DNA from: Hydrurus foetidus
Lineage: Eukaryota
Direction of reading: 5' to 3'
Length of the DNA: 64,000 nt
Assembly (NCBI GenBank): GCA_900617105.1
Contig: UYFQ01000312.1
Coordinates: 1-64,000, forward strand
The translations under genes and the position numbers were made by a program. Below the pieces are notes generated by a model. That model saw only the letters and a program-made list of their open reading frames with translations, ran no database searches and was not told the origin of the DNA. The first letter of the stretch is position 1; each line of letters begins with the position of its first letter. Of the stretch, positions 1-17,489 are shown piece by piece.

Positions 1-18
1 CACAATTTTTCAGGAGAA

Positions 19-1131
19 ATGGAGAGATTAGTGTTGAACAACTTCGATGGTGGTGACATTATTGTCTTACTGGCAGATGAAGCGTCAGAGGCGATTACGA
101 GTTGGGCAACAATTGCTGAAAAGTACGAGCAAAAAACCGAGACAACTCTGAACATTCTTGGACGCTATTTCCTTACTAGGAACCAATTCGTGGCGTATGA
201 ACCCGAGATAAAGTTCTACATTTCTCGAGGCCTGACAGAGAGCGATAGAGCGATTTTGGAAGAAAGTGCCTTATACCTCCATATGCATAACAGGACTCCT
301 GAACAGAAAAGGGCTGGGGAGTTGAGAATTATCGTCAAGAGAAAGATCACCAAGATTTTCAACCGATTACTGATAGAGCTATTTCCATCATTCAAACCGA
401 CCGAGGAATCCGTTCGTAAAGTTGTCACGCCTACCCGTGTCAGACCCGTTGTGACTGAAGATGAACAGACGGTTGCCTACAATGAACCGAAGGAGGACGA
501 TGCTACCACCGTTGACGAAGAGTATGTCTATGACGAAGAATTACCAATCAACATCAGTTTACTGACACTTCAAGAACCAGAAGTGGAGATTCCCCAGCAA
601 ATCCGCCGTCCCAGATATAGTGGAGCGACGAAGGCACAACAGCAAGACCTATTTGAAACGCAGGACAATGCCATTATGCTACTGGACCCTATTCTGGAAA
701 CATTGAAGGGTAAAATTATCTATGAACCGTGCTGTGGTAATGGAGCGATTGTGAAATATCTGGAGAAGAAGGGATTCAGTGTCATTGCGAGAGACCTTTA
801 CACAACGGAAGAGAAGCACGATTATCTCGTGGAGGAAGACCCCGAGTATGACGTGCTGATTACCAACCCCCCGTTCTGTATCAAGCATCAGTTTTTTGAG
901 AAGGCGATGTTGAGTGGCAAACCGTTCATCTTGCTATTACCACTGCAATTCCTTATTCCAAAACGCTCCTATGATAATATCAAGAAATGTGCTATTGATA
1001 TGATCATCATGAACCCGAGTCCAAAATTTCTGAATGAGAATGCTGACCGCCAAGTCGGTGAGTGTGCGTGGTTCATCGTGAACCTGACGGAGGGCGGACG
1101 CTTCACAGTGGAGCGTTTACCTGATATTTAA
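19..1131 (+). CDS. DNA amino-methyltransferase (N6-adenine type) with long N-terminal extension
   Basis: C-terminal domain has motif I-like YEPCCGNGAI and motif IV ITNPPF. Confidence 0.85.
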   Translation: MERLVLNNFDGGDIIVLLADEASEAITSWATIAEKYEQKTETTLNILGRYFLTRNQFVAYEPEIKFYISRGLTESDRAILEESALYLHMHNRTPEQKRAGELRIIVKRKITKIFNRLLIELFPSFKPTEESVRKVVTPTRVRPVVTEDEQTVAYNEPKEDDATTVDEEYVYDEELPINISLLTLQEPEVEIPQQIRRPRYSGATKAQQQDLFETQDNAIMLLDPILETLKGKIIYEPCCGNGAIVKYLEKKGFSVIARDLYTTEEKHDYLVEEDPEYDVLITNPPFCIKHQFFEKAMLSGKPFILLLPLQFLIPKRSYDNIKKCAIDMIIMNPSPKFLNENADRQVGECAWFIVNLTEGGRFTVERLPDI

Positions 1132-1649
1132 TTATACTTTGAACACAATCTCACCCACGTATTTTTCTTTTTATTTTTCATTATAGTATCGTATTGCTTA
1201 TTAATACCATCAAGTGAGAATTCGTGTAAAATTCCACCGTAGTCAGTTTGAACCTTTCTAAAGGCTGTTTGTAAATCATCGTAATCAGTATAAAACCACT
1301 CAGACCGCTTACTTGGTCTCGAGGGGAATAACATCATTTTAGCATCAGTTTCTTTTAAATAAGTAATTAGTTTTTTTTCCATCTCACGATACAACTTCTT
1401 TTTATCTTGTCCTTCATTTACCCTTGGATATGATAAAAAAAAACATATATACATTCCGAGAGGGTAGTAAGAATGATAGTTCTCAATCCTTGACGCTACG
1501 TCCTGTGAAGTCATGCCTACTTTAAAAATTGCTTTTTTCTTCCTGTCTAATTTTTCGAAAGGAAGCAGACAGTAAAGACCATTCTTTCCTTTCAAGAAGA
1601 GCTCATCGTGTGCCACGTTGTATTTTTTAACTGTAACCTTCACTGGCAT
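1128..1649 (-). CDS. T5orf172/MUG113-like (GIY-YIG superfamily) putative nuclease
   Basis: GLYC...FKVGMT...RI..Y...EKKL...SEWF pattern; its stop codon overlaps the MTase stop (TTAA at 1128-1131). Confidence 0.7.
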   Translation of the reverse strand: MPVKVTVKKYNVAHDELFLKGKNGLYCLLPFEKLDRKKKAIFKVGMTSQDVASRIENYHSYYPLGMYICFFLSYPRVNEGQDKKKLYREMEKKLITYLKETDAKMMLFPSRPSKRSEWFYTDYDDLQTAFRKVQTDYGGILHEFSLDGINKQYDTIMKNKKKNTWVRLCSKYN

Positions 1650-1716
1650 ATAAGATAATATAACATTTTTTAATAAGTTTTGTATCTCTTATTTTATTTT
1701 CTATATTTAGTATAAT

Positions 1717-2199
1717 ATGCCAAGAAAAGTCGTTGATAAATTAGAATCTTTAGTAGAAGAAGTCCCCGTAATGGTAGATATTCCGGAAGAGAGTGAAGAT
1801 AGTGAAGAACCAAAGACGATAGAAAAGAGTAAGAAACCCCGTACGGAAAAACAGAAAGAGGCGTTTTTGAAGGTCATCGAGAAACGAACGGAAGCGAGAG
1901 CTATACGAGCAAATAATAGAGAGAAGGAGGCGAAGGAGAAAGCAGAAAACGATGCGAAGGAGGCACTGGAGAGAAAGAAGTTGCTGGAGAAAAAAATTGT
2001 GAAAAAAGCAAATATTATTGCGAAAAAGGAATTGAAGAAGCATATTGCCCTTGATGATATTAGCAGTGATGAAGATGAGAGTGACTCTGAAGTAAAAAAG
2101 GAACTTGTGCGGTTCAAGAGGTCTGTTGTAGAGAAAGTGATGAAAACAACAGTCCCAGCAGTTCCAGTTCCAGTTGTACCAAAATACAGATTCGTGTAG
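1717..2199 (+). CDS. Lys/Glu-rich hypothetical viral protein
   Basis: 160-aa ATG ORF, charged coiled-coil-like, co-oriented directly upstream of the ATPase. Confidence 0.7.
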   Translation: MPRKVVDKLESLVEEVPVMVDIPEESEDSEEPKTIEKSKKPRTEKQKEAFLKVIEKRTEARAIRANNREKEAKEKAENDAKEALERKKLLEKKIVKKANIIAKKELKKHIALDDISSDEDESDSEVKKELVRFKRSVVEKVMKTTVPAVPVPVVPKYRFV

Positions 2200-2224
2200 A
2201 TAAAATAGCAGTATACTACATAAA

Positions 2225-2992
2225 ATGTCAATAAGTTTAAAACATAATATACGTCCCGCTTTTCCAATAGCACGAATGAATTGTGACGATGGTCTTGATT
2301 CACGATTGAATATGTACTCACTGACAAGTTTGATGAATTCACATGAATGTACGGTTTTATGTGGTGCACCAAAGAGTGGTAAAACAAGTTTATTATGGGG
2401 TTTTTTTAAACACCCGAAATTATTAAAAAAAGTGTTCCATAATATTTACATTTTTCAACCAACTGTAAGTGGTGAATCAATGAAGGACAATATCTTCAGT
2501 TGTCTTCCAGATAATCAGCGTTTCGATAAATTGAATTACGATGATTTAAGTGATGTTTTAGAACGAATTACCAATAGCGAAAAATGGGAGGAAAACTGTG
2601 TAATTTTCGATGATCAGGCTGCATATTTAAAGCAAAAAAGCACACGTACTCTATTTGAAGAATTGGTGTACAATCGTAGGCATCTGAGGACAAATATTTT
2701 CTTCTTAACACAGGGATGGAAGAAAATCCCTTTAGATCTCCGCAAGGTATTTTCTAATATATTTTTATTCAAGGTTGCCAAGAAAGAGTTGTATACAATC
2801 TGGGACGAAGCAATAGAGGAGAATGTGGATTTAGTGCCAAAAATAAGTAAATTAGTTTTTGATAAGAAGCATAATTTTTTATTTGTGAATGTGGAGAGTA
2901 AGAGAATGTTTAAAAACTGGGACGAAATTCTAATTTCCGATCCAGACGATGACGATGATGTTGATGTTGATAAGGAGAAAATATGTGCATAA
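2225..2992 (+). CDS. A32-like (FtsK/HerA) genome packaging ATPase
   Basis: Walker A GAPKSGKT, Walker B VIFDD, RRHLRTNIFFLTQ arginine-finger/Q-sensor region typical of PLV/virophage/NCLDV ATPases. Confidence 0.92.
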   Translation: MSISLKHNIRPAFPIARMNCDDGLDSRLNMYSLTSLMNSHECTVLCGAPKSGKTSLLWGFFKHPKLLKKVFHNIYIFQPTVSGESMKDNIFSCLPDNQRFDKLNYDDLSDVLERITNSEKWEENCVIFDDQAAYLKQKSTRTLFEELVYNRRHLRTNIFFLTQGWKKIPLDLRKVFSNIFLFKVAKKELYTIWDEAIEENVDLVPKISKLVFDKKHNFLFVNVESKRMFKNWDEILISDPDDDDDVDVDKEKICA

Positions 2993-2998
2993 TATATT

Positions 2999-3118
2999 AT
3001 GGATAAACTACCGAACGAACTGGGATATAGAATTATTATGAAAGAAAAAGTGAAATTGAATACTCTGGAAAAGCCAAAACCAAAAACAAAAGTAAAGACG
3101 GAGACAAAATTCATTTAA
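2999..3118 (+). CDS. Possible 39-aa basic protein (MDKLPNELGYRIIMKEK...)
   Basis: Fills the gap between the ATPase and the next gene in a gene-dense element; no motif support. Confidence 0.35.
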   Translation: MDKLPNELGYRIIMKEKVKLNTLEKPKPKTKVKTETKFI

Positions 3119-3736
3119 ATATCTAATAGTATGTTAACTAATGTCAATTAAGATACTACTCAACTCAAAAGATAGGGTAAATAGTGCTACTTCAGCAAAT
3201 GATTGTGAGTTTCGTGTCAATTGGGGTGCGATATTGGACGATGGAAAATACCGTGTAAGTTATAGCATTTGTAAGCAGTTAATTCCCGTAATACCAGAAA
3301 TACCTTGGGTTTTTAGAGTGCAGAGTTCAACATTGACAGTCCCGACAACAGTAGATGGTATAACATTAAATAATACTAATGTGTCTATGATTAATGATAC
3401 AATACGTGGTAGTGTATTTAATTTTACAGGTGCAAATTTTTTATCATTAATTAAACCGACGCCCGTGAATTCGACGAAGACATTTTGGCTCAAAATGCCT
3501 ATTTTTACGTTAGGTGCTAATAATGCATACAGCACCACTAAAATGCCCATATGGTTTGATGGTGGCACATTTTTAACTGTGGCAGTAAATTTTGGTCAAG
3601 GTGGTAGTGGAGATGTCGTATCGACAGTAGCTCAGACATCAGGTGCATGGATATTTTACGCAATAACAACAACAGCATCAGAGACGCTTTTGTATGTAAA
3701 TGGAGTGCTTGTAAGAACAGGTAATTTATCATGGGG

Positions 3737-3943
3737 TGTGGTCGGACCGGCTATACCGGGCCTACGGGCCGTACCGGACCTAGTCCCGATCCATCCGATC
3801 CTACCGCCTACTGTACACATACATCTCTAGCGCAGCTGCTAGCTAGCTCTAGCCTACTCGTAGAAGTTTATCCTAGCTTCTAGCTTAGACTGTAACTAAC
3901 TAACACCTCCACTCTATCGACCTACTTTCCTATCCGGACTACA
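3737..3943 (+). repeat. 5' LTR
   Basis: TGTGGTC...GACTACA; identical by eye to 9300-9506. Confidence 0.95.
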
Positions 3944-4846
3944 ATAGCGCTATTAGTCCACCCTTTTCTCTTCTACTTCTCAGTCCATCTACCTGTCCCA
4001 ACCTGTAGATACGACTTCTGAGCTACTGCTCGTCGACTTTAAGCCGACTTCTCTTGCAGCCTTTGGCTCAGAGAACCCTAGTCTAAGTTAGAGAAAGTCA
4101 GACTACCTGCTTTCTTGGAATCCCCGTGCTTGGGCTCTTCCAAACTTGACATTCTTGGTCGAAGTTGATTTATCCTTCCCAGAAGTCATCTAAGACTTGC
4201 TCCGCTGGTAGATTGAATCACAGATTCATCACCAGAGACACAAAGTTAGTCTACAGACTTCTTTTCGTCGACGTAGAGCAACGTCTTCTACCTTTAAGGT
4301 ACCATACATTTTCTACCACTCTAAATTTGGCTTTCACGCCATAGAACTTTTCAGTTCAAGAGTTGGTTAGAATCACTCCATTCGTTGTTACTGACGTTAC
4401 AGTACCCGTTCGTGAACGAGGCGAAGCTCTGGAAAAATTTTCCTGAGCAGGGCTAACCTCTTCACAGAGATACAGCCATTTTTCTTCGGAGAAATATCTC
4501 GAGCGAATAAACGATTTCTGCTCATCTTTTGACAAGAGATACACAGAGAATTCGCATGCGGACATCATTGTCCCTTCGGATAATGATCTCTAGTATCCTA
4601 TAGAATCGTTTACACCGAGTTCTGGTTGAATTCGAGATCATCCTGCTGAGTTATGGACTTAGCACGACATCGTCGTTCTCGACTGATTTTTATCAGGTTT
4701 TGACCCAGAAAAGGTCACGACCTATAGAAAGATGCCTAACAGTCATATAAACATGATCTGAAGCTTCTAATCTCTCGAATCGCTCTCAGTAGAGAGATAT
4801 CGACGATTAAAGAAAATATCCTCCAAGGATTACTGACCATCCTGAG

Positions 4847-5872
4847 TTCGGGGTTCGAGCCCCAGTAGGGGTGGGTCACCTTTTCGTACATTTGAAAATG
4901 TCGTATTTTTTTTTTAGTTTTCAATATGTGGGCACACATTTTGTAACAATTTAACAACAGATTTAAAGTCTTTACAAGATTTTGAGACTGCAAACATTTC
5001 AAAAAAAAAAGAGTGTTCCTCCAGCTTTAAGCCAAACTTTTTCATTGTAATATTTCTCACATTGGAAATGTTCTGTTGCTTTGCAACATGAATCAAAAGA
5101 TCGTTAGTATGAAACGCTCTTTTCGTTCACGCTATCACGTTTCTCACACAGCTCTATGCTGAGTAAAATTATTGCAATGCAATATTATGCATTGATTGAA
5201 AAAGTGATCGTAAGTGCAATCAACCTTTTGCCTGCACACAACACCGGCTAGCCATCAGAGCGCCGCTGATCAATCTGTGTGGGGTACAGCGAATTCATCA
5301 AGGGTTTTATTTCATTTTACATGATAAAAATTCTTAACGTTATACACCTTTGTTATCCTGCCCGTAGGGCCATAACGGTGTGTAGCGGTCGCGACGATCA
5401 ATATAAAACTTGCGATTTTACAATCCTTTTTCATTCTTACAATGGTGAATGCAATTGCATCAGCCTGCCCATAAGGGTATATCGACAGATTAATTTGCCG
5501 AGACAACACTCAGCCGGGACAAAACCAAGGTACATCCTTGCCCAGGACTGCGTGGCTGTCACTTTCGATAATGATGTCTTTAATCTGACTGATGATCATC
5601 TCGAAGTGCAGCCAGATGTACCTATTCAAAAACGAATATCAACATATTATTCAGCCGAGACAACACTCAGCCGGGACAAAACCAAGGTACATCCTTGCCC
5701 AGGACTGCGTGGCTGTCACTTTCGATAATGATGTCTTTAATCTGACTGATGATCATGTCGAAGTGCAGCCACATGTACCTATTCGGAAGACGGAAATTGG
5801 CATATTATTTAGCCGTGATACGGTAAATAAGTATGACATTTAAACGTTAACTCCATTTGCTTTCGGCATTTC
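4847..5872. other. AT-richer insertion inside the LTR element's gag region
   Basis: Flanked by TCCTGAG direct repeats (4840-4846, 5873-5879); no TIRs or recognisable ORF. Confidence 0.45.
5497..5784 (+). repeat. Tandem duplication, ~131-bp unit with 157-bp period
   Basis: 5497-5627 vs 5654-5784, two mismatches seen. Confidence 0.9.
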
Positions 5873-6457
5873 TCCTGAGCTTAGCGCTGAGAATATGAGA
5901 AAGAGTGATGCTCGCATGCGAATTCGATAAGAAATACGCATCGGATAAACTCGACCCATTGTTTCAACACAATATACGCGTCGTATGATAGCGTTGGGTG
6001 CCGAACCTGATACAGCCGTAGTCGAGTCTTTTACACCTCATTACGACAAGCTGAAATATCCAGGCGGCAAACCATCCTCTGATAAGAGAGAAACATATGG
6101 ATTGTACGAGTATCCGAATAGGAAGAGCATATTGCATGGTCAATCTTCTTCGAAGAGCAACGTCTCTTGTGTCCATACAATGTCGACATGTAACGATACT
6201 CAGATGGAAATCGAGGGAGTCATGACCCAAGATCCCTGTGGTGTTGTAGGTTGTGAGCGACTGAATAGTGTCACTACTATTCTCGCAAAACGTACGGGTG
6301 ATACACCGCACCTAGGTGGCGACCAGATTCCCACCCCTACAAACACTTCTGAGGACTCTGATACCTTAGACTATGTCACTGAGCCTTTATGGCCCAGTGG
6401 TGTCGCACTCTCAGTTGACGAGATTGACGATGGCAAGATAGATACGTTTGCCCCTTC

Positions 6458-7419
6458 TTGGCGGAGAAACCTAGTCAAGATGACTTGCCCAAAGGGCCAG
6501 AGGATTTCCTCAAAGAGATTACCTTTGAAGGAGATGAAAGCTTTCAAAGGAAGCTCCGAGAGCTCTGTTCTGAATATTCAGACATCTTCAGTGATCAATT
6601 AGCTGAGAAACCAGCGTCACTTAAACCCTTTGAGATTAACATCCCACTTGAGTTGTGGGAAAAAGACGAAAACCGTACGCCGGTACGTCCCCAATCATCA
6701 ACAAAAGAGGTTGCTCTCAAAGAAAACCTTGACGAGATGCTTGCATCAGGGGTTATAGAGCGATCAGATGCCGCTTATTACAGTCATCCTGTAATAGTAA
6801 CTAAGTCACCCGGTAAATTTCGAACCTGCATCGATTACCGGCCACTTAATAGGTGTCTTAAGCCGGCCTCATTCCCGTTGCCTAATATCAAACACCTCTT
6901 TGAGAGGATCGGTAATAAAAAACCGGATATTTTTGGTGTGATGGATTTAACCGCAGGTTACCATCAAGCACCGTTACACCCCGCACACCGCATTTTTACG
7001 GCATTCATATGCTTTGCGGGGGTATTTCAGTTTACGAGACTGCCCTTTGGTCCGTGGCGTGCCCCCTCTTACTTTCGAGAGCAGATGGTAACGGCGGTCC
7101 TCTATGGCCTTGTACATCATTGTTGTGAGATGTATCTCGGCAATTGTATTGTATCTGGCAAGGGTGAAGCAGAGTTTTTACAACTTGAAACCAATGTAAA
7201 ATATGACAGATCGTTCTGTTCTAAAGAGCTCCACTGTCTTATGGACTCGAAAGAGTACCAACCACTTTTAGACACGCAATCGCTTTCACAAGCAAATAGT
7301 TAAGACCCACACAAATAAAGTGGTCAACGACACAAAAAGAGGCTTACGCTATCTTCTATTGTTGTATACAACTCGATTATCTAATCAGAGATCGTACGTT
7401 CACTATCCATACGGATCAG
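6458..7419 (+). pseudogene. Gypsy reverse transcriptase / RNase H, inactivated and partly deleted
   Basis: RTCIDYRPLN, MDLTAGYHQ, RLPFG motifs; catalytic YxDD reads YLGN. Thumb/connection is missing, and the RNase H remnant AIAFTSK*LRPTQIKWSTTQKEAYAI has a stop. Confidence 0.88.
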
Positions 7420-8952
7420 TTGAACATTACATATATGAAACAAAATCTTACCTCAATGGTGGCGAGATGGTTCATTGCTATGCAAGAACTAGATTTTACC
7501 GTGGTATTCGTACCCGGTACTTCGAATGTTTTGGCAGACGCACTGTCAAGGCTTTGTCCTAATCTGACAGAAATTGCTCTGCCATTACGAACAGAAGAAT
7601 TGGAATTACTTCCTACTTCATCATCGTCTTTCACTGTATCAGCTCTGACGGTCATAGAACCAGCTTCAGACGATCAGTTAGAATACATTCAAATGTGCCA
7701 CAATGCAATTGTCGGTCACAACGGCGTAGACCGTACCCTTACTCGGTTGTTTAGTTTACAACAAGTATGGAAACACATGAAACAACATGTACGTACGTTC
7801 ATACAGAACTGTCCGTGTTGTCAAAAGTTGAGTGCAAAAGATCCTAAGATCAATGCGTCTCATTTTGCAACTTCAAATTATGCTATCTTCGATACGCTAA
7901 ATGTTGACTATATTGGTCCATTTCCTGACAAAGGTTATATCCTAGTCATCATCGATACATTCACACGATGGACAGAATTGTTCTGGTGTGCAGACGCAGA
8001 TGCTAAATCAGCAGCTGACTGTTTGCTTGCGCATTTTGGTCGATTTGGATCACCAAATATGATTAGATCTGATCGAGGATCACATTTCGCAAATGAATTG
8101 ATCAAAGAATTCTTAGATCTTTGTGGAACACCACATAATCTCACCCTTGCTTACTCGAAACAAGAGAATGCAATTGTTGAAAGAGTCAACAAAGAGGTGA
8201 ATAGACACTTAAGAGGTTTAGTTTTTGATAAACAAACCCTTGAGGGATATGCTAAGTCAATCCCTTTCGTGCAACGTATCATTAACGGTTCAGTTAATAG
8301 ACGCACAGGTGTCTGCCCCGCTCATTTATTGTTCGGAAACAAACTTGATTTGAATCGTGGTATTCTCACTCCACACTTAAGTGTTGGAACACATTCAAGA
8401 TCAACGTACATATCAGATTTGATAAGTGTACAAGACAAAGTACTTGAAACTGCGGTTCAAACTTTGTTAAAAGCGGATGCTAAAAACGCCGCGTCAGCTG
8501 AATCAGCGACTGTGTTCCCCGTGGGGTCATATGTCTTATGCCGATACACTGATCGACCTCCAACTCGATTACATACTAAGTGGCATGGCCCTTACTGTAT
8601 TGTCTCCTTTAAGGGGTCCGAGTACGTTCTCGCTAATCTTGTAAATCACAAGACACGAAGTGTTCACGTCAAGAATTTGAAAATATTCAATTATGACCCA
8701 GAGGTAGATATACCTGCTGACACTGCTCGTCGCGATTACATGGAGTTCGTGGTTGAGAAAGTTCTGGGTCACGCTGGTGACACCAAGAAACCGACTACAA
8801 TGTCGTTCCATGTTAAATGGCTCAACTACGATGACTCTCATAATACATGGGAGCCGTGGAAATCACTACGGCTCTGTGAAGCACTCCATGATTATTTACG
8901 GGATAATAAAATGAAACATTTCATTCCCAGAAACATTGAGACATCAGCCTAA
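7420..8952 (+). CDS. Retroviral-type integrase with GPY/F motif and C-terminal chromodomain (plus RNase H tail)
   Basis: HHCC (CHNAIVGH...CPCC), D-D-E core (VDYIGP, SDRGSHF, VERVN), WHGPY, chromodomain FVVEKVLGH...FHVKWLNYDDSHNTWEP. Confidence 0.93.
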   Translation: MNITYMKQNLTSMVARWFIAMQELDFTVVFVPGTSNVLADALSRLCPNLTEIALPLRTEELELLPTSSSSFTVSALTVIEPASDDQLEYIQMCHNAIVGHNGVDRTLTRLFSLQQVWKHMKQHVRTFIQNCPCCQKLSAKDPKINASHFATSNYAIFDTLNVDYIGPFPDKGYILVIIDTFTRWTELFWCADADAKSAADCLLAHFGRFGSPNMIRSDRGSHFANELIKEFLDLCGTPHNLTLAYSKQENAIVERVNKEVNRHLRGLVFDKQTLEGYAKSIPFVQRIINGSVNRRTGVCPAHLLFGNKLDLNRGILTPHLSVGTHSRSTYISDLISVQDKVLETAVQTLLKADAKNAASAESATVFPVGSYVLCRYTDRPPTRLHTKWHGPYCIVSFKGSEYVLANLVNHKTRSVHVKNLKIFNYDPEVDIPADTARRDYMEFVVEKVLGHAGDTKKPTTMSFHVKWLNYDDSHNTWEPWKSLRLCEALHDYLRDNKMKHFIPRNIETSA

Positions 8953-9276
8953 GTTGCTGATCTCGAACGTATTATCTTTTGAAGATTTTTCCTAATTTTT
9001 CCCTCTATGAGGTTTTTTATGGTTTTAGTCAGTAAAAATCTGACATAATTACGTATCGAGGTCTCGTGCGCAAGTACATGGTACTAGGCACCCACCTTAT
9101 CGCCTCGACCGACCCACCACCAAGTCTATTTGTATAAATTTATATTTTTATACATTTCAATGTATTATTAGATTTACATATTTGTAATCTTTTTCTTTAT
9201 TCTTCCTTTAGTTAGTTTTAGCCTTATTAGATTTTTGTACAAAACGTGGTGGTCGCGTCATAGGTTCTTTTTCTTC

Positions 9277-9299
9277 AGAAAAAAGATAAGTGGGGGTGA
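9277..9299 (+). promoter_or_regulatory. Polypurine tract
   Basis: AGAAAAAAGATAAGTGGGGGTGA immediately 5' of the 3' LTR. Confidence 0.75.
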
Positions 9300-9506
9300 T
9301 GTGGTCGGACCGGCTATACCGGGCCTACGGGCCGTACCGGACCTAGTCCCGATCCATCCGATCCTACCGCCTACTGTACACATACATCTCTAGCGCAGCT
9401 GCTAGCTAGCTCTAGCCTACTCGTAGAAGTTTATCCTAGCTTCTAGCTTAGACTGTAACTAACTAACACCTCCACTCTATCGACCTACTTTCCTATCCGG
9501 ACTACA
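9300..9506 (+). repeat. 3' LTR
   Basis: 207 bp, identical to the 5' LTR, followed by GGGG TSD. Confidence 0.95.
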
Positions 9507-9667
9507 GGGGTGGCGATACTGCAGCCATAAATTTTGGTGCATATAGGGGGTCATCGTTTTTAACGGGTCGTCTGGACGATATGAGGTTATATTCCAGCAC
9601 TCTCACAGCATCAGACATAAATGCATTATATACAAGAACATTATTATAATATACCTATTATTGTATA

Positions 9668-9922
9668 ATGTCAAATATAACATTGCATATAGATTTGGGT
9701 CAAGATACAGTTACAACAACATCACCGACACAAGTTGTATCGAGAAACACTAGAGAATTAGGCAGATTTATACCCCGTATAGATGTGAATCAGACAATTG
9801 AATTACGCAGCAGACCACAGAATAACACTTTTAGTGTGAAGTTAATAGACAATCTTACAAATTTAGTATCAACTTTAAATTACAAATATATCATACAACT
9901 TCAATTTGAAAAGATAGAATAA
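9668..9922 (+). CDS. C-terminal half of a penton-like protein (paralog of the C-terminal part of 9944-10399)
   Basis: IDLGQDTVTTTSPTQ / NTFSVKL / YIIQLQFEKI align with INLGQSSVYTASPTN / NEFTVKI / YLLALNFEKI. Confidence 0.7.
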   Translation: MSNITLHIDLGQDTVTTTSPTQVVSRNTRELGRFIPRIDVNQTIELRSRPQNNTFSVKLIDNLTNLVSTLNYKYIIQLQFEKIE

Positions 9923-9943
9923 TTTCTTAATATAGATTATATC

Positions 9944-10399
9944 ATGCCAATTTACAATGTACTAATCAATAGTAGGAATAGAGTGCCAACACTTACATCA
10001 TCATCAAATTCAACATACTATTTTAATTGGGGGGGTGTGCTTCCTGAAGGGCAGTATTTACTTCGTTGGGGTTTTACGTGTTCAGGAATCGATACAACAG
10101 TAAATAGTGTTGGTTTAGTATCAATTAATTTAGGTCAGAGTAGTGTGTATACAGCATCACCAACAAATGTGGGAGCATCAACGACAAATATAATTGGTTC
10201 TATTATTCCAAACGAAAATGATGCGAACAGTTTTTTGTATGGCGATTCCAACACGAATAATGTGATTTTTCTCGGTAATGCCCCGTCAGTAAATGAATTT
10301 ACAGTAAAAATAACATTTTTAGATGGTTCTCTATGGACTGATTCGAGAGGTCTCGAGATTCCTGAATACTTACTTGCTTTAAATTTCGAGAAAATATGA
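9944..10399 (+). CDS. Small penton-like (putative single jelly-roll) virion protein
   Basis: Beta-rich 151 aa with N-terminal INSRNR motif resembling the I(D/N)SxDR start of NCLDV/PLV penton-like proteins; fold is inferred. Confidence 0.6.
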   Translation: MPIYNVLINSRNRVPTLTSSSNSTYYFNWGGVLPEGQYLLRWGFTCSGIDTTVNSVGLVSINLGQSSVYTASPTNVGASTTNIIGSIIPNENDANSFLYGDSNTNNVIFLGNAPSVNEFTVKITFLDGSLWTDSRGLEIPEYLLALNFEKI

Positions 10400-10415
10400 A
10401 TAGGTATAGTATAGA

Positions 10416-11144
10416 ATGTCATCTTTTACATACAACCTACAGACAATGGCAGGACTGGAGAGTGTCAGTGATGGTGTTGCAACCTTGGAAAATGGAGTAT
10501 TAGAATGTGATAGGGTAATAGCAGATGATATTGAGACAAATAGTTTAAATACAATAAATTTGAGTGTACTGAATAACATTACAGCTGGTCAATCGGTTGC
10601 GATAGGGCGTGACGTAGCAGTCGGAAATAGTATTGTCTCTCCGAATTTGTACACAACAAAATTAGTATCAAGTATTTTGGAATGCAAAAAGTTAAAAACA
10701 GAAAATATTCATTTGTATAATAATTTACAATCATATGATGATACAAATGTGGGATATATAAAAACAGCAGTAACAGCATCATCATCATTATTATTTACAA
10801 ATACAAGTAAGAGTATCGTCTCTTTACCTTTACCAATAGGTGTATATACCATATCATATTGTTTTACTCTGGGATTATCAGGTGTGTCACTTCCATCACT
10901 ACATAGTTTATCTCATGGACTTTCTACAGATAATCAGAATTTTAATGTGATACAAAAAAAGAATTATCAAAACTTGGTGTATAACGACAGTTTATCTTAT
11001 GTAACATTTTACGAAACGGGATTTTTCCATATTACAGATTATAATAGTTTCTTGTATCTATTGATAAGACATAATACGGCAGTAAATACCTCGAGTAGAA
11101 TGCTTATAGAGAACGCCAAAATATCAGTATTACGAATAGCATAA
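10416..11144 (+). CDS. Putative virion structural/fiber-associated protein
   Basis: 242-aa ORF in the structural cluster with beta-rich C-terminal domain ending ...ISVLRIA; function inferred from context. Confidence 0.55.
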   Translation: MSSFTYNLQTMAGLESVSDGVATLENGVLECDRVIADDIETNSLNTINLSVLNNITAGQSVAIGRDVAVGNSIVSPNLYTTKLVSSILECKKLKTENIHLYNNLQSYDDTNVGYIKTAVTASSSLLFTNTSKSIVSLPLPIGVYTISYCFTLGLSGVSLPSLHSLSHGLSTDNQNFNVIQKKNYQNLVYNDSLSYVTFYETGFFHITDYNSFLYLLIRHNTAVNTSSRMLIENAKISVLRIA

Positions 11145-11176
11145 GTAATATTATTATATAACCTTATAGTAACATT

Positions 11177-12636
11177 ATGTCAAATATTTCAGCACTAAAT
11201 TTGGCAGTAAGCGGGACTTGTGGAATAAGTGGTGGTGTTAGTTTATCATCACCTCTAATAAGTGGATCATCTTGTTCTTATCAAGGTATTACAACAAGTA
11301 CATTGACTACAACAGGTGCCGTTCTTCATAACTCTCTACCAATATGCAATATATTGCCATCATTACCGAATCAATTAGTATCGAAAGGATATACTGACAC
11401 ACAGAATAATGCACAGTCAACTTTAATTCGTGATTTAGAAATACGAGCAACAGCAATAGAAGATTTAAATATAGTCCAAGATGATCGATTAATAGCAATA
11501 GAAGAATTGAATATAATCCAAGATACACGTCTCACAGATGTAGAAAACGAAAATATATCGCAAAATATATCAATAAGTGATATTCAGACAATTAATGATA
11601 ATCAAAATGCTAATATTACTGCGTTACAGATAGGAATACAGACACGTGCTACAGCAATTGAAACTGTGAATGCTAATCAGGCGACATCAATAACAGCAAT
11701 TGAGGGGGTCAATACCACACAGAATACGAATATCACTGCTCTACAGACACGTGCTACAGCAATAGAGGGGGTCAATACCACGCAGAATACGAATATTACA
11801 GCGTTACAGACACGTGCTACAGCGATTGAGGGGGTCAATACCACGCAGAATACGAATATTACAGCGTTACAGACACGTGCTACAGCGATTGAGGGGGTCA
11901 ATACCACGCAGAATACGAATATTACAGCGTTACAGACACGTGCTACAGCAATTGAGGGGGTCAATACCACGCAGAATACGAATATCACCGCTTTACAAAC
12001 ACGTGCTACAGCAATTGAGGGGGTCAATACCACGCAGAATACGAATATCACCGCTTTACAAACACGTGCTACAGCAATTGAGGGAGTAAATACGACTCAA
12101 GGGACAAATATCACTGCATTACAGACACGTGCTACAGCAATAGAGACAGTAAACACTAATCAAGACGCAGTAAATACCACTCAAAATACAAATATCACGG
12201 CTTTGCAACAGAAAACGACTCCTATTGTATACACAACCCCCGTAGCGGGTGCATTAACATCATTAACGTCATCATTAGACATACTACCTTATGTATCAAG
12301 TACATTCTTAAAAGTTTATAATATTAACAATCAAGCGATTACTTGTTTAGGACAGGCGATTTTTGGTGGCTTAGGTCTCATAACATCACGATTACAATTA
12401 GGTAATTTTGGGACGATTATGACTGGAATGTCTTTTGGTAATACTTTAAGCGTCGTTGGAAATAACGTGGTGAATTTTCCAGCATCAACATTTTCAGGAG
12501 CAGTTGTACCAAGAGTGCTAATTAGTCCATCAGGGAATGGTGTTTTTTTGTAGTCAGCAGAACCCTTATATCATTTACTTATTCCGCATCAGTAGCGGGT
12601 GTGAATGTAGATTGGATCGCATTACAGTCAGTTTAA
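11177..12636 (+). CDS. Coiled-coil fiber protein with C-terminal receptor-binding-like domain (probable frameshift at T7 run 12543-12549)
   Basis: 21-aa heptad repeats. The called ORF stops at 12553, but the shifted frame continues VVSRTLISFTYSASVAGVNVDWIALQSV*, completing a V.F...F...P.V.../WIA tail-fiber or H-lectin-like tip. Confidence 0.72.
11640..12210 (+). repeat. 63-bp coding tandem repeat (TRATAIEGVNTTQNTNITALQ), ~7 core copies plus degenerate flanks
   Basis: Directly visible in DNA and protein. Confidence 0.95.
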
Positions 12637-12657
12637 ATATCAATATATCACATACAA

Positions 12658-12888
12658 ATGACACAATTCATTGAGTCATCTAATTCTATAACAGTAATAA
12701 CTCTAACATTCGGTTTTGTATCAATGGCGTTAATCACAATAACAACGTGTATTTTCAAGGTGAAGTGTCGAGAGTGTGTTTTAGGGTGTTGTAAAATTAC
12801 CCGTGATGTATCAGCAGAAAACTTGGAATTGGAGATAGAGAGCAGAACTAATCGTAAAGATAATATACCCCCGCCATCAATCGTTTAG
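12658..12888 (+). CDS. Small membrane protein with Cys cluster
   Basis: Hydrophobic segment followed by CIFKVKCRECVLGCCKITRD. Confidence 0.65.
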   Translation: MTQFIESSNSITVITLTFGFVSMALITITTCIFKVKCRECVLGCCKITRDVSAENLELEIESRTNRKDNIPPPSIV

Positions 12889-12934
12889 TTTTAGCATTAT
12901 ATTAATATGTTTTAATATAATATACACAGAAAAA

Positions 12935-13204
12935 ATGGGCTTTTGGGGTAAAATTCTCGGAAATGTTGCTGGTGGTTTAGGATCTAAGGTGCTTCCACTA
13001 CAGGGGGTAAATGGCGGTGAAATCGGTGCCTCAATCGGAAACTTGCTTCCTTTCAAGAATGGAGGTGCAGTAGGTGGAAAGAAAGGTAAGGCGAAGGTTA
13101 TTCTTGCCCATGGAGGTGAGTATGTTCTTCCAGCAAATGCTAAGCCAACAAAGGCACAAAAAGCAATTGTTGCACGAAACAAGAAAAATGCAAAAAAGAA
13201 GTAA
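12935..13204 (+). CDS. Small Gly-rich basic protein, putative virion core or membrane-active protein
   Basis: MG start, amphipathic GFWGKILGNVAGGLG, several GG motifs, Lys-rich tail. Confidence 0.65.
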   Translation: MGFWGKILGNVAGGLGSKVLPLQGVNGGEIGASIGNLLPFKNGGAVGGKKGKAKVILAHGGEYVLPANAKPTKAQKAIVARNKKNAKKK

Positions 13205-13240
13205 AGCATAACACATTATAAAATAATACATAAAAATATC

Positions 13241-13765
13241 TTATAATGTCAAACCACTTGTGTTTTTTTTTTTTTCTAACCTCTTTTCCCGTGCCTTTTG
13301 GTTACGAAGTAATCGACGTGTTTCTATCTCGTCTGGGGTTAATGGGTGTTGGGCCCGTGTTCGTCTTGCTATTGGAGTAGTAATATCATCAGGTGTTTTG
13401 TATGAGTCAGCAAGATTCACAGCAACTTTATCTGTTGTTTTTTTGCTTTGAATTGGTCTTCTTACTTTAATAAACACTGTTTCGGGATATGTTGACTGTA
13501 TTCCTATTTCATTTGTTGTTTTTACTGGAGTTATTACAGGTTCAAATGCTGGTAGTTGTACAGCAGGGGCATTAAAAATCACTGGTGGAGAAGGTTCACT
13601 TTGTAAAGTAATATACTGTGGTTGTTGGCGATAAGCCGGTTGTGGTGAAGTCCTTTTTGCCCTTGCTTTGGAGGTGTTAATATTTACTACGACGCTTTGT
13701 GATTGTTTCTGTTTCTGCTTCAACCCCTTTTTAGATGGTTTTTTGGAAATCTTCTTCTTTGCCAT
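13241..13765 (-). CDS. Basic putative core/DNA-binding protein
   Basis: Lys-rich N-terminus with KQKQKQSQSVVVNI motif; Arg/Lys-rich C-terminus. Confidence 0.65.
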   Translation of the reverse strand: MAKKKISKKPSKKGLKQKQKQSQSVVVNINTSKARAKRTSPQPAYRQQPQYITLQSEPSPPVIFNAPAVQLPAFEPVITPVKTTNEIGIQSTYPETVFIKVRRPIQSKKTTDKVAVNLADSYKTPDDITTPIARRTRAQHPLTPDEIETRRLLRNQKAREKRLEKKKNTSGLTL

Positions 13766-13781
13766 TTACAATACCAATACA

Positions 13782-14471
13782 TTAAAATAAACGACTAAAA
13801 CTGTTTTTAAAAAATTCAGGTATATCACGATTTAGTACATTATTAAACTTCATGTTGCTTGTAGAAAATAAACTATATCCAGTGCTTGGTTTTTGTAAAA
13901 GTTCATTACTTTGTATCTTATCTATTGCAGTAGTAGCAACTGCTCCGACATCAGTGGTAGTATTCACAATTTTACGGAATTGGGGATTTCCTTCAAATAA
14001 CTGTCTTGTGTCCTGTAAAACGAACTTCTCAAGAGCATCTGTATTTAACCCGTTTGATATTAAAATAGAAATAATGTAGTCCTGACAATTATTATCAGCC
14101 CCCTTATAAGAATAGTAAGACCCGCCCATTTTGCTTTTAGTTTTTGAAAGCATATCATTGAGAGTTAAACCAGCGTTTATTGGAACTGCAAGAGTTTCCG
14201 TTCCTTTACCTAATTTTGTGAATTTGTAAATTTGTATCACTTCGTTCTTCTCAACCACAAAAGAACCATTTTTAGTTTGAACAACCATAAAGAGATGATA
14301 CAAAGTGTCGTAATCAGTATTTTCCATTTTTTTCTCCAACTGTCCTCGTGATGTGATATTGAGTAGGAATTTTAATACTTTTGACAGCGGGGTTCGATTA
14401 ACCGTTATTTTCGTGATTTGGTCGTCTCCTATCCTGTTGATAATCTTCTGTACAGAGTTTAAATATGACAT
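13782..14471 (-). CDS. Permuted papain-like (PPPDE/LRAT-like) cysteine protease, putative maturation protease
   Basis: His before Cys: LYHLFMVV...VEKNEVI...Y...NNCQDYI. Start taken at MSYLNS (14471) to avoid overlap with the divergent minor capsid gene. Confidence 0.7.
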   Translation of the reverse strand: MSYLNSVQKIINRIGDDQITKITVNRTPLSKVLKFLLNITSRGQLEKKMENTDYDTLYHLFMVVQTKNGSFVVEKNEVIQIYKFTKLGKGTETLAVPINAGLTLNDMLSKTKSKMGGSYYSYKGADNNCQDYIISILISNGLNTDALEKFVLQDTRQLFEGNPQFRKIVNTTTDVGAVATTAIDKIQSNELLQKPSTGYSLFSTSNMKFNNVLNRDIPEFFKNSFSRLF

Positions 14472-14496
14472 ATTATAGTATAAGAGAACATAAAAA

Positions 14497-15441
14497 ATGA
14501 TGACAGTTGAAGATACTCGGTACATATCCATCAACACTCAACATTGTATCAAAAAACCAAGTAGTGGCTCCGGAAATACTTTATACGAATCTTCCTTTTT
14601 ATCGCAAATATCATTTGATTTAAAAAACGTTTTAAAAGATGATGATGATATACTGTATTCGCATGTTGATATAATCAATGCACAGATTCCCGTGTCATTT
14701 TACCTTATCAATTACACAACAAATGTATTAGCATATAAAATAAATAGTGGTGTGATACAACTGATGACAATAGAGCGTGGAAATTACAATATTACGTCGC
14801 TTATGAGTGTAATCAAGCAGGGGTTTTTAAACGCAGGATATGCATTTACAATAACATTTAATAAGGTTACAGGTAAATTGTTATTTGTATCACCCATCGG
14901 AACAACCTTTACGATATTATCCAGTAATTCAGGCGGAACTATAAATGAGATTATCGGTTTTGATTCTGTGTCTTCTTACATATCAACAGGTAATAGTTTA
15001 AACGCCGAACATCCTGCCAGTTTAATCGGTATTAAGAAATTAAAAATTAGTTCTTCCGCTTTACATACAAGTAGTTTATCTAGTGGTGGAGGGGGGGATT
15101 TACTCGGAATTATACCTGTGAATTCTGTAGCAACAGGATTGATACTATATGAAAATAATAGTTCAAAAAAAGGAGGTTTAATGAGAAATAAGGAAATATC
15201 AAATATTGACATTACAATTACAGATGAAAATAACCGCTATATAAACTTCAATAATGTAGAGTATAGCATTACTCTGGGAATTACAACAACACGTATTTTA
15301 AAAGAAAGAATTAATTCTCTATTTAGGGATTCAACACAACAAATACTTGATACAAAGCAACCACAAAATGTAGAAACAAATACTGGTGGAGATGAAAATG
15401 ATTTAGATTATTTTATGTATAAGCACGGGATACAAATATAA
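14497..15441 (+). CDS. Minor capsid (penton) protein
   Basis: NAQIPVSFYLIN, GNY, LLGIIPV, IDITITDE...INFNNVEYSITL pattern of PLV/Polinton minor capsid proteins; directly upstream of the MCP. Confidence 0.8.
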   Translation: MMTVEDTRYISINTQHCIKKPSSGSGNTLYESSFLSQISFDLKNVLKDDDDILYSHVDIINAQIPVSFYLINYTTNVLAYKINSGVIQLMTIERGNYNITSLMSVIKQGFLNAGYAFTITFNKVTGKLLFVSPIGTTFTILSSNSGGTINEIIGFDSVSSYISTGNSLNAEHPASLIGIKKLKISSSALHTSSLSSGGGGDLLGIIPVNSVATGLILYENNSSKKGGLMRNKEISNIDITITDENNRYINFNNVEYSITLGITTTRILKERINSLFRDSTQQILDTKQPQNVETNTGGDENDLDYFMYKHGIQI

Positions 15442-15488
15442 TGCGTTTTTATTCAAATTAATCTCTTTTGATACACTATACTTAAAGA

Positions 15489-16814
15489 ATGAGTTTAATG
15501 CTTCCAAAAGAGATTAATTACGACCTTCCTGTCTCACTTCCATCTGGCGTCCAGACATTTGATATTAACGTCCTTCCTGTGAATGGAACAAGTTTCAGTT
15601 GTGCTACGGCGGGAGCTTACGTCCAGTTCGATCTACCTGCACGTGCTGGATATATGGACGGTAAAACCCTCGCCCTCCGTTATAAATATACTTGTGTTTC
15701 TACGGGTGTGACTCGTATCCGTGCTTGTCCTTTCTTTACCCCTATTCTCCGTCTTGAAACCATCTTCGGATCTCAGCCAGTCCAGAACATAAATGAGTAC
15801 GGTCAACTTCAGAATATGCTTATTAACCTGACGCATAACGTGGCGGACAAAATTGGTAGTGTGACGGGTTACGGTTGGGCTCTCGAAGGTGCTGATAAGG
15901 TACATACATGGCAGTCGACTGATGGACGTTCTTGCGGACAAAATGAGACGGGTTCGTTTTGGGGTCCACTGAAGGGGTGTATTCTATCCGAGGCGGATAG
16001 GTATATACCAACAGGAATGATGCCAAATATCCGTATTCAACTTACTCTTGATTCCATTGCCAACATCTTTGCTCCTCCATTGGCTGCTGCAGTAACACTA
16101 AATCTTGAAACAGGTACTCCAGTTTCAAGTGCAACAGTAACGCCAACTGATTTTACCTTGAGCGATTTTGTGCTTTCTTACAGCCAAATTGACTTTGGTA
16201 CTGAAGTAGACAATGCTGTTCGTTCTATGGGTGAGAAAATTACAATTAAGAGTCAATCTTTCAATAGTTCATCTAACCCTATCAACTCAGGAACAGCAGG
16301 TCAGTTTGAGTTGATTTACTCACAGAAAATGGCATCCGTTAAATCACTTTTCCTTCATTGTGGTTCAGGTTCTCAGAACGGTAAATTTGATGCATTCGAA
16401 ATTACATCTGGTGGTGATGTTCAGTTTAGTATAGCATCTCGTCTTTATCCACAGAGTCGTCCACTTTCGTCAGCAGTAGCTTCTCGTGGTACGCTTTTCT
16501 TGGAATTGAAGAAGGCCGTGGGCAGTTTATATAACAAGCATAACAGCATGAGTATTAACCAGCAAGAGTATTTGACCCTAGGAACTGCATCAACCGTAGT
16601 AAATCCTGCCAAGGTTTATTACGCAGTGAATACCGAACAAATCCAGTCGAATTCCGTTCTTTTGAGTGGGGTTAGTACTCAAAATTCCCCCGTGACCGTT
16701 CGATTAAACATAGCTACTCCGACGGCGTTTCCCGTGTCAGCAACTCTGATAAGTGCGTTTGATGTTCTAATTGAGATAGATCCAAGTGAGAAATCAGCCC
16801 GTGTAATCCAGTAA
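15489..16814 (+). CDS. Major capsid protein (putative double jelly-roll)
   Basis: 441 aa, beta-rich, PVNGTSF...VQFDLP...GYMDGKTLALRY N-terminal pattern typical of PLV MCPs; position after the penton. Confidence 0.85.
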   Translation: MSLMLPKEINYDLPVSLPSGVQTFDINVLPVNGTSFSCATAGAYVQFDLPARAGYMDGKTLALRYKYTCVSTGVTRIRACPFFTPILRLETIFGSQPVQNINEYGQLQNMLINLTHNVADKIGSVTGYGWALEGADKVHTWQSTDGRSCGQNETGSFWGPLKGCILSEADRYIPTGMMPNIRIQLTLDSIANIFAPPLAAAVTLNLETGTPVSSATVTPTDFTLSDFVLSYSQIDFGTEVDNAVRSMGEKITIKSQSFNSSSNPINSGTAGQFELIYSQKMASVKSLFLHCGSGSQNGKFDAFEITSGGDVQFSIASRLYPQSRPLSSAVASRGTLFLELKKAVGSLYNKHNSMSINQQEYLTLGTASTVVNPAKVYYAVNTEQIQSNSVLLSGVSTQNSPVTVRLNIATPTAFPVSATLISAFDVLIEIDPSEKSARVIQ

Positions 16815-16873
16815 AAGAATGGTCTGTAAATATATGGAAAAAGGGTCTTGAAAAGGGTATATAATATAATACT

Positions 16874-17046
16874 CAATAATAAGGTAGCGGGTAACGGATA
16901 AAAGAGGTTTAAAATCAATGAACACTGAAAAATAAAATGGATACTATGAAATTTGGAAATTATAGCAAAGTATCCTAGCATCCTATAATTTACCTACGAT
17001 GGGGTTTAAACCTACCCGCTACCCGCTACCCGCTACCTTGTTATTG
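16874..17046. repeat. 20-bp inverted repeat with TACCCGC x3 iterons
   Basis: CAATAATAAGGTAGCGGGTA (16874-16893) vs TACCCGCTACCTTGTTATTG (17027-17046), one mismatch. Confidence 0.8.
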
Positions 17047-17056
17047 GGAATACTTA

Positions 17057-17433
17057 TGTATTTTTTAAACCCCCGCCAGAGTAAAAAAACGTGATTTTGC
17101 TATGTTTTTATGGCAATTTTTGGCGTTTTTACGAGAAAATGTAAGAGAAATATGATACAAAAAAATGACTGCTAAAATGGTGTAAAGATATTATGATTTA
17201 TAAGAGACATAAAAATGATATTGTGAGAAAAAAAAGGAAAAATGAAGAAGTATTTTTACTGCTAAAATGGAGTAAATATACAATATGTAAAAAATTATAA
17301 AATAGAGGCGTTATAATTATAACGTAAGAAAAGGGTATAAAAACGTTACATTTTCTCGTAAAAACGCCAAAAATTGCCATAAAAACATAGCAAAATCACG
17401 TTTTTTTACTCTGGCGGGGGTTTAAAAAATACA
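17057..17433. repeat. Perfect 88-bp inverted repeat with 201-bp spacer at the viral terminus
   Basis: 17057-17144 is the reverse complement of 17346-17433; spacer holds two ACTGCTAAAATGG copies. Confidence 0.93.
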
Positions 17434-17489
17434 CCTCAGGGAACAAGTTCCAGGTTCTTCCCGTGTGTTCCGTGTGTGATGTGTAGGAG

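What the first reader, a model, noticed from the sequence alone, without database searches (positions are those of the whole stretch)
1..17433. Endogenous Polinton-like virus with an elaborate virion module
Seen: intronless gene block with A32 ATPase, MCP, penton, two extra penton-like units, a repeat fiber, a His-before-Cys protease, small basic/membrane proteins, an MTase and a GIY-YIG-like gene, embedded next to intron-rich host genes. Known: ATPase + mCP + MCP is the PLV/virophage/Polinton morphogenesis core. Inferred: a recently integrated and possibly undescribed PLV lineage, since nearly all ORFs are still open.
Basis: partly seen in the sequence, partly recalled or inferred. Interest (0 to 1): 0.9.

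Follow-up and report, generated by a model that had tools for sequence, protein, structure and literature searches.

The report
Transposon-hit endogenous Polinton-like virus
This is the capsid-gene half of a small DNA virus lying in the genome of what is likely a golden alga; a jumping gene has broken one gene of this copy, sister copies likely remain intact, and the family likely reproduces as a parasite of giant viruses, a known kind of element.

Summary
Real, but a known kind. Window 1-17433 holds the right part of a Polinton-like virus (PLV). The 15489-16814 protein folds as a double jelly-roll capsid (pLDDT 88; Z 27), with a penton and an A32 ATPase. Relatives are common: 31 IMG/VR contigs, and a published alpine-lake PLV with the same gene kit.

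(1) A 5.77-kb Ty3/Gypsy retrotransposon (3737-9506; identical 207-bp LTRs) fills a third of the interval and splits the LamG gene. The fibre gene also looks frameshifted.
(2) The 'protease' is an LRAT/H-rev107-like hydrolase, not the capsid maturation protease.
(3) The extra penton-like units are a family trait; their fold is only weakly supported.

PLV contigs run 3.5-6 times deeper than the flank, mostly lack the insertion, and differ mainly synonymously (45 of 64), so intact sister copies likely exist. No RNA reads covered the PLV. New here: relatives carry the mimivirus early promoter AAAATTGA before replication genes (12 of 16), pointing to a virophage-like life. The left end and replication genes lie outside the window; the host junction was not bridged. 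Chrysophyte PLVs with embedded Gypsy elements are already published.

The parts
19..1131 (+). DNA adenine methyltransferase (C-terminal domain, NPPF motif) with an N-terminal extension
   Evidence: PHROG 799 E 5.5e-31; homologues in 6 of 31 relatives
1128..1649 (-). T5orf172/MUG113 (GIY-YIG-like) protein
   Evidence: Pfam 3e-5, above cut-off; 0 of 31 relatives
1717..2199 (+). Conserved charged protein of this PLV family, function unknown
   Evidence: 22 of 31 relatives; look-alike gene 8 in GKSPLV13, by eye
2225..2992 (+). A32-like packaging ATPase
   Evidence: Pox_A32 1.2e-7; 31 of 31 relatives
3141..3736 (+). 5' part of the LamG (concanavalin-like) gene; N-terminus resembles the first third of ORF 9944; broken at 3736 by the retrotransposon
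   Evidence: Laminin_G_3 2.4e-7; match to 9944 E 5e-9
3737..9506 (+). Ty3/Gypsy chromovirus-type LTR retrotransposon, internally decayed; LTRs 3737-3943 and 9300-9506 identical; GGGG target-site duplication
   Evidence: RVT_1, rve, Integrase_H2C2, Chromo; very high summed contig depth
9507..9649 (+). 3' remainder of the LamG gene
   Evidence: open frame with LamG-like C-terminal pattern
9668..9922 (+). 84-aa ORF matching the C-terminal half of ORF 9944 (half of a penton-like unit), in frame with the LamG gene behind its stop
   Evidence: E 4e-7 to 9944; same 84-aa protein on 10 public contigs
9944..10399 (+). Small beta-rich, probably penton-like (single jelly-roll) virion protein
   Evidence: family in 20 of 31 relatives; colinear but weak profile match to the penton core, E 0.002 vs controls 0.16-0.66
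10416..11144 (+). Short fibre-like protein; N-terminus resembles the fibre anchors of relatives
   Evidence: by eye; no Pfam or PHROG hit
11177..12553 (+). Fibre with 21-aa coiled-coil repeats; likely frameshifted near 12542, the neighbouring frame runs to 12636
   Evidence: TRF 63 nt x 7.2; one-base difference in X1 and X5 contigs
12658..12888 (+). Small membrane protein with Cys-rich motif
   Evidence: 5 of 31 relatives
12935..13204 (+). Small Gly/Lys-rich protein
   Evidence: 5 of 31 relatives
13241..13765 (-). Basic protein with KQKQ..Q..VVVNIN motif, likely a DNA-binding core protein
   Evidence: 4 of 31 relatives by phmmer; role inferred
13782..14471 (-). Permuted NlpC/P60 (LRAT/H-rev107-like) thiol hydrolase, likely phospholipase or acyltransferase
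   Evidence: H59, E74, Y122, N128, C129 invariant in 82 sequences; LRAT in 24 of 82 members, best 6e-4; published look-alike annotated phospholipase via 2MY9
14497..15441 (+). Penton (minor capsid protein)
   Evidence: profile hit to PBCV-1 P1v1 8h2i_bG E 2.7e-5; 30 of 31 relatives
15489..16814 (+). [quoted passage not shown]
   Evidence: AF2 pLDDT 88.3; Foldseek SGIV MCP 9e-18; VIA Z 27.3 faustovirus, 26.6 PBCV-1
16815..17433 (.). AT-rich right-terminal region, probable TIR; contains a perfect 88-bp inverted repeat (17057-17144 / 17346-17433) without a target duplication
   Evidence: summed depth 2644-6591 vs 623-877 over MCP in X1
17434..19923 (+). Flank: decayed hAT transposon between two 53-bp near-copies (17434-17484, 19871-19923)
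   Evidence: Dimer_Tnp_hAT 1e-15
20061..20404 (+). First host gene; spliced (GT..AG intron about 20221-20309) and transcribed; coordinates approximate
   Evidence: 61 junction reads in X21; sequence

Best explanation
This is the structural half of a Polinton-like virus, likely integrated in a chrysophyte-like genome as one of several near-identical copies, and this copy has a gene broken by a young Ty3/Gypsy insertion, while intact sisters would likely lie silent until a Mimiviridae-type giant virus infects the cell and switches them on. Shown: double jelly-roll MCP model, penton and A32 homology, the insertion with identical LTRs and target duplication, the deeper PLV contigs, synonymous-biased differences, no RNA reads in two runs, and AAAATTGA before relatives' replication genes. 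Inferred: integration by a tyrosine recombinase (14 of 31 relatives carry a candidate) and replication by a primase-helicase or pPolB, both encoded left of the window; early genes read by the giant virus's transcription machinery; A32 packaging of the genome into an MCP capsid whose vertices carry the penton, small penton-like proteins, a LamG sugar-binding domain and fibres; an LRAT-like enzyme acting on membranes at entry. Odds: PLV 0.97; chromosomal multi-copy 0.85; giant-virus dependence about 0.55.
For: Fold. Core genes in relatives: MCP and A32 31 of 31, penton 30 of 31. Single-contig depths, PLV vs flank: X1 555-651 vs 108-114; X3 20-23 vs 3.7; X5 316 vs 89, similar ratios in three samples from two studies. 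Contigs at the main depth leave the window at 3738 with 52 letters unlaid (X1 record 8, X3 record 13), as an insertion-free site would. 45 of 64 coding differences are synonymous vs 22% expected. RNA: zero depth over 12300-18327 (X21) and 1-3720 (X22) while the neighbouring host gene is spliced. AAAATTGA lies before 37 of 419 relative ORFs (opposite strand 9; rank 1 of 168 permutations), 12 of 16 replication genes and 2 of 109 structural genes; de-duplicated 15 of 179, still rank 1. The same motif precedes replication genes in the giant-virus-dependent PLV PgVV. Host: best organism-named DHOase hit is Mallomonas.
Against: No listed contig bridges 17433/17434 (830 pieces not shown), and X1 may be the window's own source. 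The tool warns that contig depth is not copy number. The window's PLV part has no AAAATTGA, and the relatives that carry it are only 30-41% identical in MCP; L013, L023, L030 and L031 lack it before their replication gene. The TSV-related cluster also contains an autonomous lytic virus. The RNA runs share only the species label, are oligo-dT and were read at about 6%. GC contrast with the host is small (36-38% vs 40%). Host identity rests on one gene, whose hits include many bacteria.
Confidence: 0.55

Rival explanations
1. Same endogenous PLV, but autonomous: it replicates in the host nucleus with host transcription, as TsV-N1 does, or spreads as a self-synthesising transposon, with no giant-virus helper.
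For: No AAAATTGA in 1-17433. TsV is described as a nuclear lytic PLV. 2 of 8 relative groups with a complete replication gene lack the motif there.
Against: The visible part holds only structural and accessory genes, which also lack the motif in relatives (2 of 109). 6 of 8 groups carry it before the replication gene. No RNA in two runs.
Confidence: 0.25
2. The whole family in this host is a dead, recently amplified relic, and no copy can be reactivated.
For: This copy has a retrotransposon insertion and a likely fibre frameshift. No RNA reads.
Against: Main-depth contigs appear insertion-free and carry the extra fibre base. Strong synonymous bias. Near-identical MCPs (>=90%) form a 15-member cluster in public assemblies.
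Confidence: 0.12
3. The PLV is a co-sequenced free virus or another locus, joined to this host flank by mis-assembly.
For: Junction not bridged in the listed pieces; it lies between two repeats (IR module and hAT remnant).
Against: A host-type, very high-copy LTR retrotransposon is inserted in it with a target duplication, which requires residence in the host nucleus. Stable PLV-to-flank depth ratio in three samples. A wrong join would change the address, not the endogenous status.
Confidence: 0.08

Closest known systems
GKSPLV13 (V5MERGE_NODE_3031, MCP cluster PC_0160; Bellas & Sommaruga 2021, PMC7805220 Table S2)
   Same: By eye: MCP motifs SVKSLF...NGKFD, similar penton, ATPase, charged gene ending in RFV, small 9944-like gene, fibres, small Gly/Lys gene and basic gene. 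16.4 kb with TIRs; 204-fold enriched in the virus fraction. Its MCP's best BLAST hit is Tetraselmis viridis virus S1.
   Different: Known as a free virus; pPolB and a classical lipase; no LamG, MTase or LRAT-like gene in the listed ORFs. No alignment was computed, so membership in PC_0160 is a lead.
Endogenous PLVs of chrysophytes and synurids (Bellas et al. 2023, PMC10120064)
   Same: Multi-copy EVEs; a chrysophyte PLV with an embedded Ty3/Gypsy element is described. PC_0158- and PC_0206/PC_0160-type MCPs are listed in Synura and Chromulina genomes (column reading could be off by one).
   Different: No promoter or helper inference in the sections I read. I did not test whether any published element is this one.
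Gezel-14T / PgVV (bioRxiv 2022.07.28.501842)
   Same: PLV with MCP, mCP, A32, fibre and lipase-type enzyme; AAAATTGA before recombinase and polymerase genes; giant-virus dependent.
   Different: Haptophyte host; alpha/beta-hydrolase rather than LRAT-like enzyme; a different MCP group according to the literature (not aligned here).
Tetraselmis TsV-S2/S3 endogenous PLVs and Cafeteria EMALEs
   Same: Silent integrated elements reactivated by a giant virus; about one in four EMALEs is interrupted by a retrotransposon.
   Different: EMALEs are true virophages with another MCP type and Ngaro (YR) retrotransposons; Tetraselmis is a green alga.

Membership tests
Polinton-like viruses (Aquintoviricetes) | Double jelly-roll MCP | tested here: met
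Polinton-like viruses (Aquintoviricetes) | [quoted passage not shown] | tested here: met
   profile hit to PBCV-1 penton E 2.7e-5; sequence level only, not folded
Polinton-like viruses (Aquintoviricetes) | A32-like packaging ATPase | tested here: met
Polinton-like viruses (Aquintoviricetes) | No adenain-type maturation protease or RVE integrase (Yutin 2015) | tested here: inconclusive
   None in the visible part (the rve hit belongs to the retrotransposon); left arm unseen. No adenain-like cluster noticed among the 32 largest ORF clusters of 31 relatives, not searched by profile.
Polinton-like viruses (Aquintoviricetes) | 15-30 kb genome with TIRs or circular ends, plus replication gene | not testable with these tools
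   11.7 kb visible without the insert; no genome held; 10 relative queries incl. helicases, pPolB, recombinase gave no tblastn hit in the window. Relatives: 9-18 kb, TIRs of 132-436 bp in 3 of the 13 inspected.
TVS/TSV-related freshwater PLV cluster (PC_0160/PC_0206 type) | MCP groups with these clusters in a tree or HMM search | tested here: inconclusive
   Only by-eye motif and gene-kit match to GKSPLV13; reference sequences and the 2026 HMM set were not available as tool sequences
Virophages (Lavidaviridae / Virophaviricetes) | Virophage-type MCP | tested here: not met
   No Sputnik MCP Pfam among the 12 families hit by 112 members; a true virophage MCP scored 5e-37
Virophages (Lavidaviridae / Virophaviricetes) | Adenain-type cysteine protease | tested here: inconclusive
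   The candidate is LRAT-like. In 15 of 32 contigs carrying its relatives a separate adenain-like ORF was found by motif (one of five tested hit Peptidase_C5 at 8e-4). Left arm unseen.
Maverick-Polintons and Gosseviruses (Polintoviricetes) | pPolB + RVE integrase, or core cysteine protease | tested here: inconclusive
   Not in the visible part; relatives mostly carry primase-helicases and a candidate tyrosine recombinase
Ty3/Gypsy chromovirus LTR retrotransposon (insert) | TG...CA LTRs, target duplication, polypurine tract, RT then integrase then chromodomain | tested here: met
   gag/pol region broken into several frames
Permuted NlpC/P60 (LRAT/H-rev107) enzymes | His before Cys with an NC motif; LRAT profile match | tested here: inconclusive
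   Motif met; Pfam hits below cut-off; no PDB hit; not folded

The most novel reading that the evidence does not exclude
A biofilm-associated PLV sub-lineage, so far seen only on short contigs, lives as a multi-copy provirophage in a freshwater golden alga. It would be switched on through mimivirus early promoters and decorate its vertices with a penton-like protein naturally split into two polypeptides around a LamG sugar-binding domain. The wider freshwater cluster would then be a large, unrecognised group of giant-virus parasites.
Probability: 0.35. Interest if true: 0.6.

Novelty: new member of a known kind. Interest (0 to 1): 0.38.

Why it matters
Which PLV groups depend on giant viruses is an open question, answered for only a few isolates. 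The AAAATTGA signal in this freshwater cluster predicts a Mimiviridae helper, and a host with several near-intact copies makes that testable. A chrysophyte-infecting mimivirid has now been cultured. The element itself, a chrysophyte-type endogenous PLV with a Gypsy insertion, is already a described situation.

Tried and rejected
Single-sequence fold of the MCP failed (pLDDT 33); the alignment-based fold was used.

No hits: single-protein or close-alignment locus scans, so no close relative with flanks was obtained; PDB sequence search with the MCP profile; phage records for MCP and ATPase; six MCP motifs in the Bellas 2023 supplement, which is cut in storage; earlier scan findings; ten named look-ups gave no organism. 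A 15-nt terminal pattern gave 92 single matches, about chance level by my estimate, not followed up. No RNA holder was listed.

GKS2/Alpenseevirus was considered, because some relatives carry Tet-like genes and 17 of 112 MCPs weakly hit Capsid_N. It was set aside because the printed PC_0018 MCPs lack the shared motifs by eye; not formally excluded.

A MITE reading of 17057-17433 was set aside: no target duplication, and alternative upstream sequences resemble each other; not excluded.

Full-length profile comparison of the 9944 family with the penton gave nothing (prob 1%). No oligomer prediction or Atlas result was obtained for 9944 or the hydrolase. TATA next to the start codon (100 of 131 in relatives, 7 of 14 here) is partly explained by AT content and is not used as evidence.
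Full report
ANATOMY. ORFs in 1-17433 fall into two AT-rich blocks (GC 0.38 and 0.36) around a 0.43-GC insert. The insert, 3737-9506, has identical 207-bp TG...CA LTRs, GGGG on both sides, a polypurine tract and RT, rve, H2C2 and chromo domains. It is a Ty3/Gypsy chromovirus-type element with broken internal frames and very high summed contig depth. It sits inside the LamG gene (3141-3736; remainder to 9649). Without it, 10,425 of 11,044 bases are coding.

CAPSID MODULE. The 441-aa ORF has 172 homologues among 7,880 candidates. With 112 sequences AlphaFold gave pLDDT 88.3 and pTM 0.86. Best matches are double jelly-roll capsids: SGIV 9e-18, and Z 27.3 faustovirus, 26.6 PBCV-1, 17.9 Sputnik. The 14497 family profile hits the PBCV-1 penton at 2.7e-5. 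ORF 2225 is Pox_A32. A scan returned 31 IMG/VR contigs at 30-41% MCP identity. All 31 carry the ATPase, 30 the penton, 22 the 1717 gene and 20 the 9944 family, often in two copies. ORF 9944 matches the N-terminus of the LamG ORF and, with its C-half, ORF 9668. The 84-aa 9668 protein is called identically on 10 public contigs, so the split looks natural. Penton-likeness is weak: full profile 1%; penton core without its insertion colinear at E 0.002, against 0.16-0.66 for four controls.

THE 'PROTEASE'. H59, E74, Y122, N128 and C129 are invariant in 82 sequences. LRAT is the commonest Pfam hit (24 of 82, best 6e-4; 25 of 32 families shown). A look-alike in Bellas & Sommaruga's Table S2 is annotated phospholipase through H-rev107 (by eye). 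Only 2 of 31 MCP relatives have the gene. Of 32 contigs found with it, 2 carry this MCP type and 15 carry a separate adenain-like ORF by motif (weak Peptidase_C5 in 1 of 5 tested). It is therefore likely an accessory hydrolase shared with virophages, not the maturation protease.

ENDOGENOUS, MULTI-COPY, PARTLY BROKEN. The stretch is held by cultures of organism A and by freshwater sediment and biofilm metagenomes (20 of 22 listed runs; 3 were laid). Single-contig depths, PLV vs flank, are X1 555-651 vs 108-114, X3 20-23 vs 3.7 and X5 316 vs 89. The tool cautions that depth is not copy number, and X1 may be the source. Main-depth contigs leave the window at 3738 with 52 unlaid letters, as an empty site would; the letters were not shown. 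X1 and X5 contigs have one more base near 12542 than the window, where the fibre frame stops early. This is either a mutation of this copy or an assembly error; Bellas 2023 warns of the latter. Of 80 listed differences (548 not shown) I used 64 in PLV genes, dropping 7 in the hAT, 5 in the retrotransposon and 4 beside an indel. 45 are synonymous against 22% expected. RNA runs X21 and X22 show no reads on the PLV parts laid, but 61 spliced reads on the host gene near 20220. The junction at 17433 is not bridged in the pieces listed. The terminal 600 bp are several-fold deeper than the MCP and hold a perfect 88-bp inverted repeat without target duplication, best read as a shared TIR. Host genes nearby include PRMT, arrestin, RCC1 and a DHOase whose best organism-named hit is Mallomonas, so a chrysophyte-like host is likely, on one gene.

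MECHANISM. Replication and integration genes are not in the window. Relatives carry D5/AEP primase-helicases, SF1 helicases or pPolB (17 of 31 loci), and 14 of 31 carry a gene resembling the published PLV tyrosine recombinase (identity by eye, no Pfam hit). The mimivirus early promoter AAAATTGA lies within 120 nt upstream of 37 of 419 ORFs, against 9 on the opposite strand, rank 1 of 168 permutations. It precedes 12 of 16 replication genes and 2 of 109 structural genes. With one locus per MCP group it is 15 of 179, still rank 1, and 6 of 8 groups with a complete replication gene have it there. The window's part has none, as expected for structural genes, but this also means the inference is borrowed from distant relatives. 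I put giant-virus dependence at about 0.55.

COMPARISON AND NOVELTY. The profile finds 320 clusters (50% identity) at E<=1e-30 and 2,772 at 1e-3. In a tree of 92 of 142 sequences the window lies in a 35-member clade (support 0.99) without any of the 31 IMG/VR contigs. GKSPLV13 (PC_0160) shares motifs and gene kit by eye. PC_0160 and PC_0206 recur in Korean freshwater viromes, and such MCPs are listed in Synura and Chromulina genomes. Placing them in the TVS/TSV cluster is my inference from the TVS1 BLAST hit and the text. A chrysophyte PLV with an embedded Ty3/Gypsy element is published. Searches listed no paper applying AAAATTGA to this cluster; the library is partial and bioRxiv supplements are closed.

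PAPERS SEEN. PMC10120064: passages, sections 7 and 9, supplement 2 parts 1 and 28 plus searches. PMC7805220: text parts 2-3, supplement parts 24-25 plus searches. bioRxiv 2026.06.19.733378: parts 1-3 of 5. bioRxiv 2022.07.28.501842: passages and section 9. PMC4642659, PMC11161782, PMC8547959, bioRxiv 2025.10.09.676808 and 2025.06.17.660233: passages only. LRAT/PPPDE and adenain motif patterns and hAT end features are recalled.

VERDICT. A real, well-supported endogenous PLV copy, damaged by a retrotransposon; new member of a known kind; interest 0.38.

Noticed in passing
window 25034-30213: A separate GC-rich (47-59%) mobile element: a D5-like primase-helicase ORF (25034-26830, PHROG primase 6e-7), two tyrosine-recombinase-like ORFs on opposite strands (27131-28345, 28322-29035) and a perfect 300-bp direct repeat (29024/29914). 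Unrelated by tblastn to the PLV relatives' replication genes.
   Followed up: partly
L001-L031: Mimivirus early promoter AAAATTGA before replication genes of free PLV contigs, and in tandem inside the TIR of L013.
   Followed up: yes
L007:3893-4441, L015:13379-13924: Tet/JBP-like dioxygenase genes (weak Pfam hits) in a cluster of 7 of 31 relatives, a trait reported for the GKS2 group.
   Followed up: partly
window 19090-19205: 116-bp near-perfect palindrome inside the hAT remnant; very high depth and absent from other hAT copies (skip 19084-19205), so likely a small MITE.
   Followed up: partly
window 36577-39180: Larger hAT-like transposase remnant on the minus strand.
   Followed up: no
window 5470-5783: 157-bp tandem duplication inside the retrotransposon.
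   Followed up: no
window 1-930: The MTase gene has lower depth (207 in X1) than the structural genes (600-1100), so only some copies carry this variant.
   Followed up: no
L032-L063: The LRAT-like gene is shared with virophage-like contigs that carry their own adenain-like protease.
   Followed up: partly
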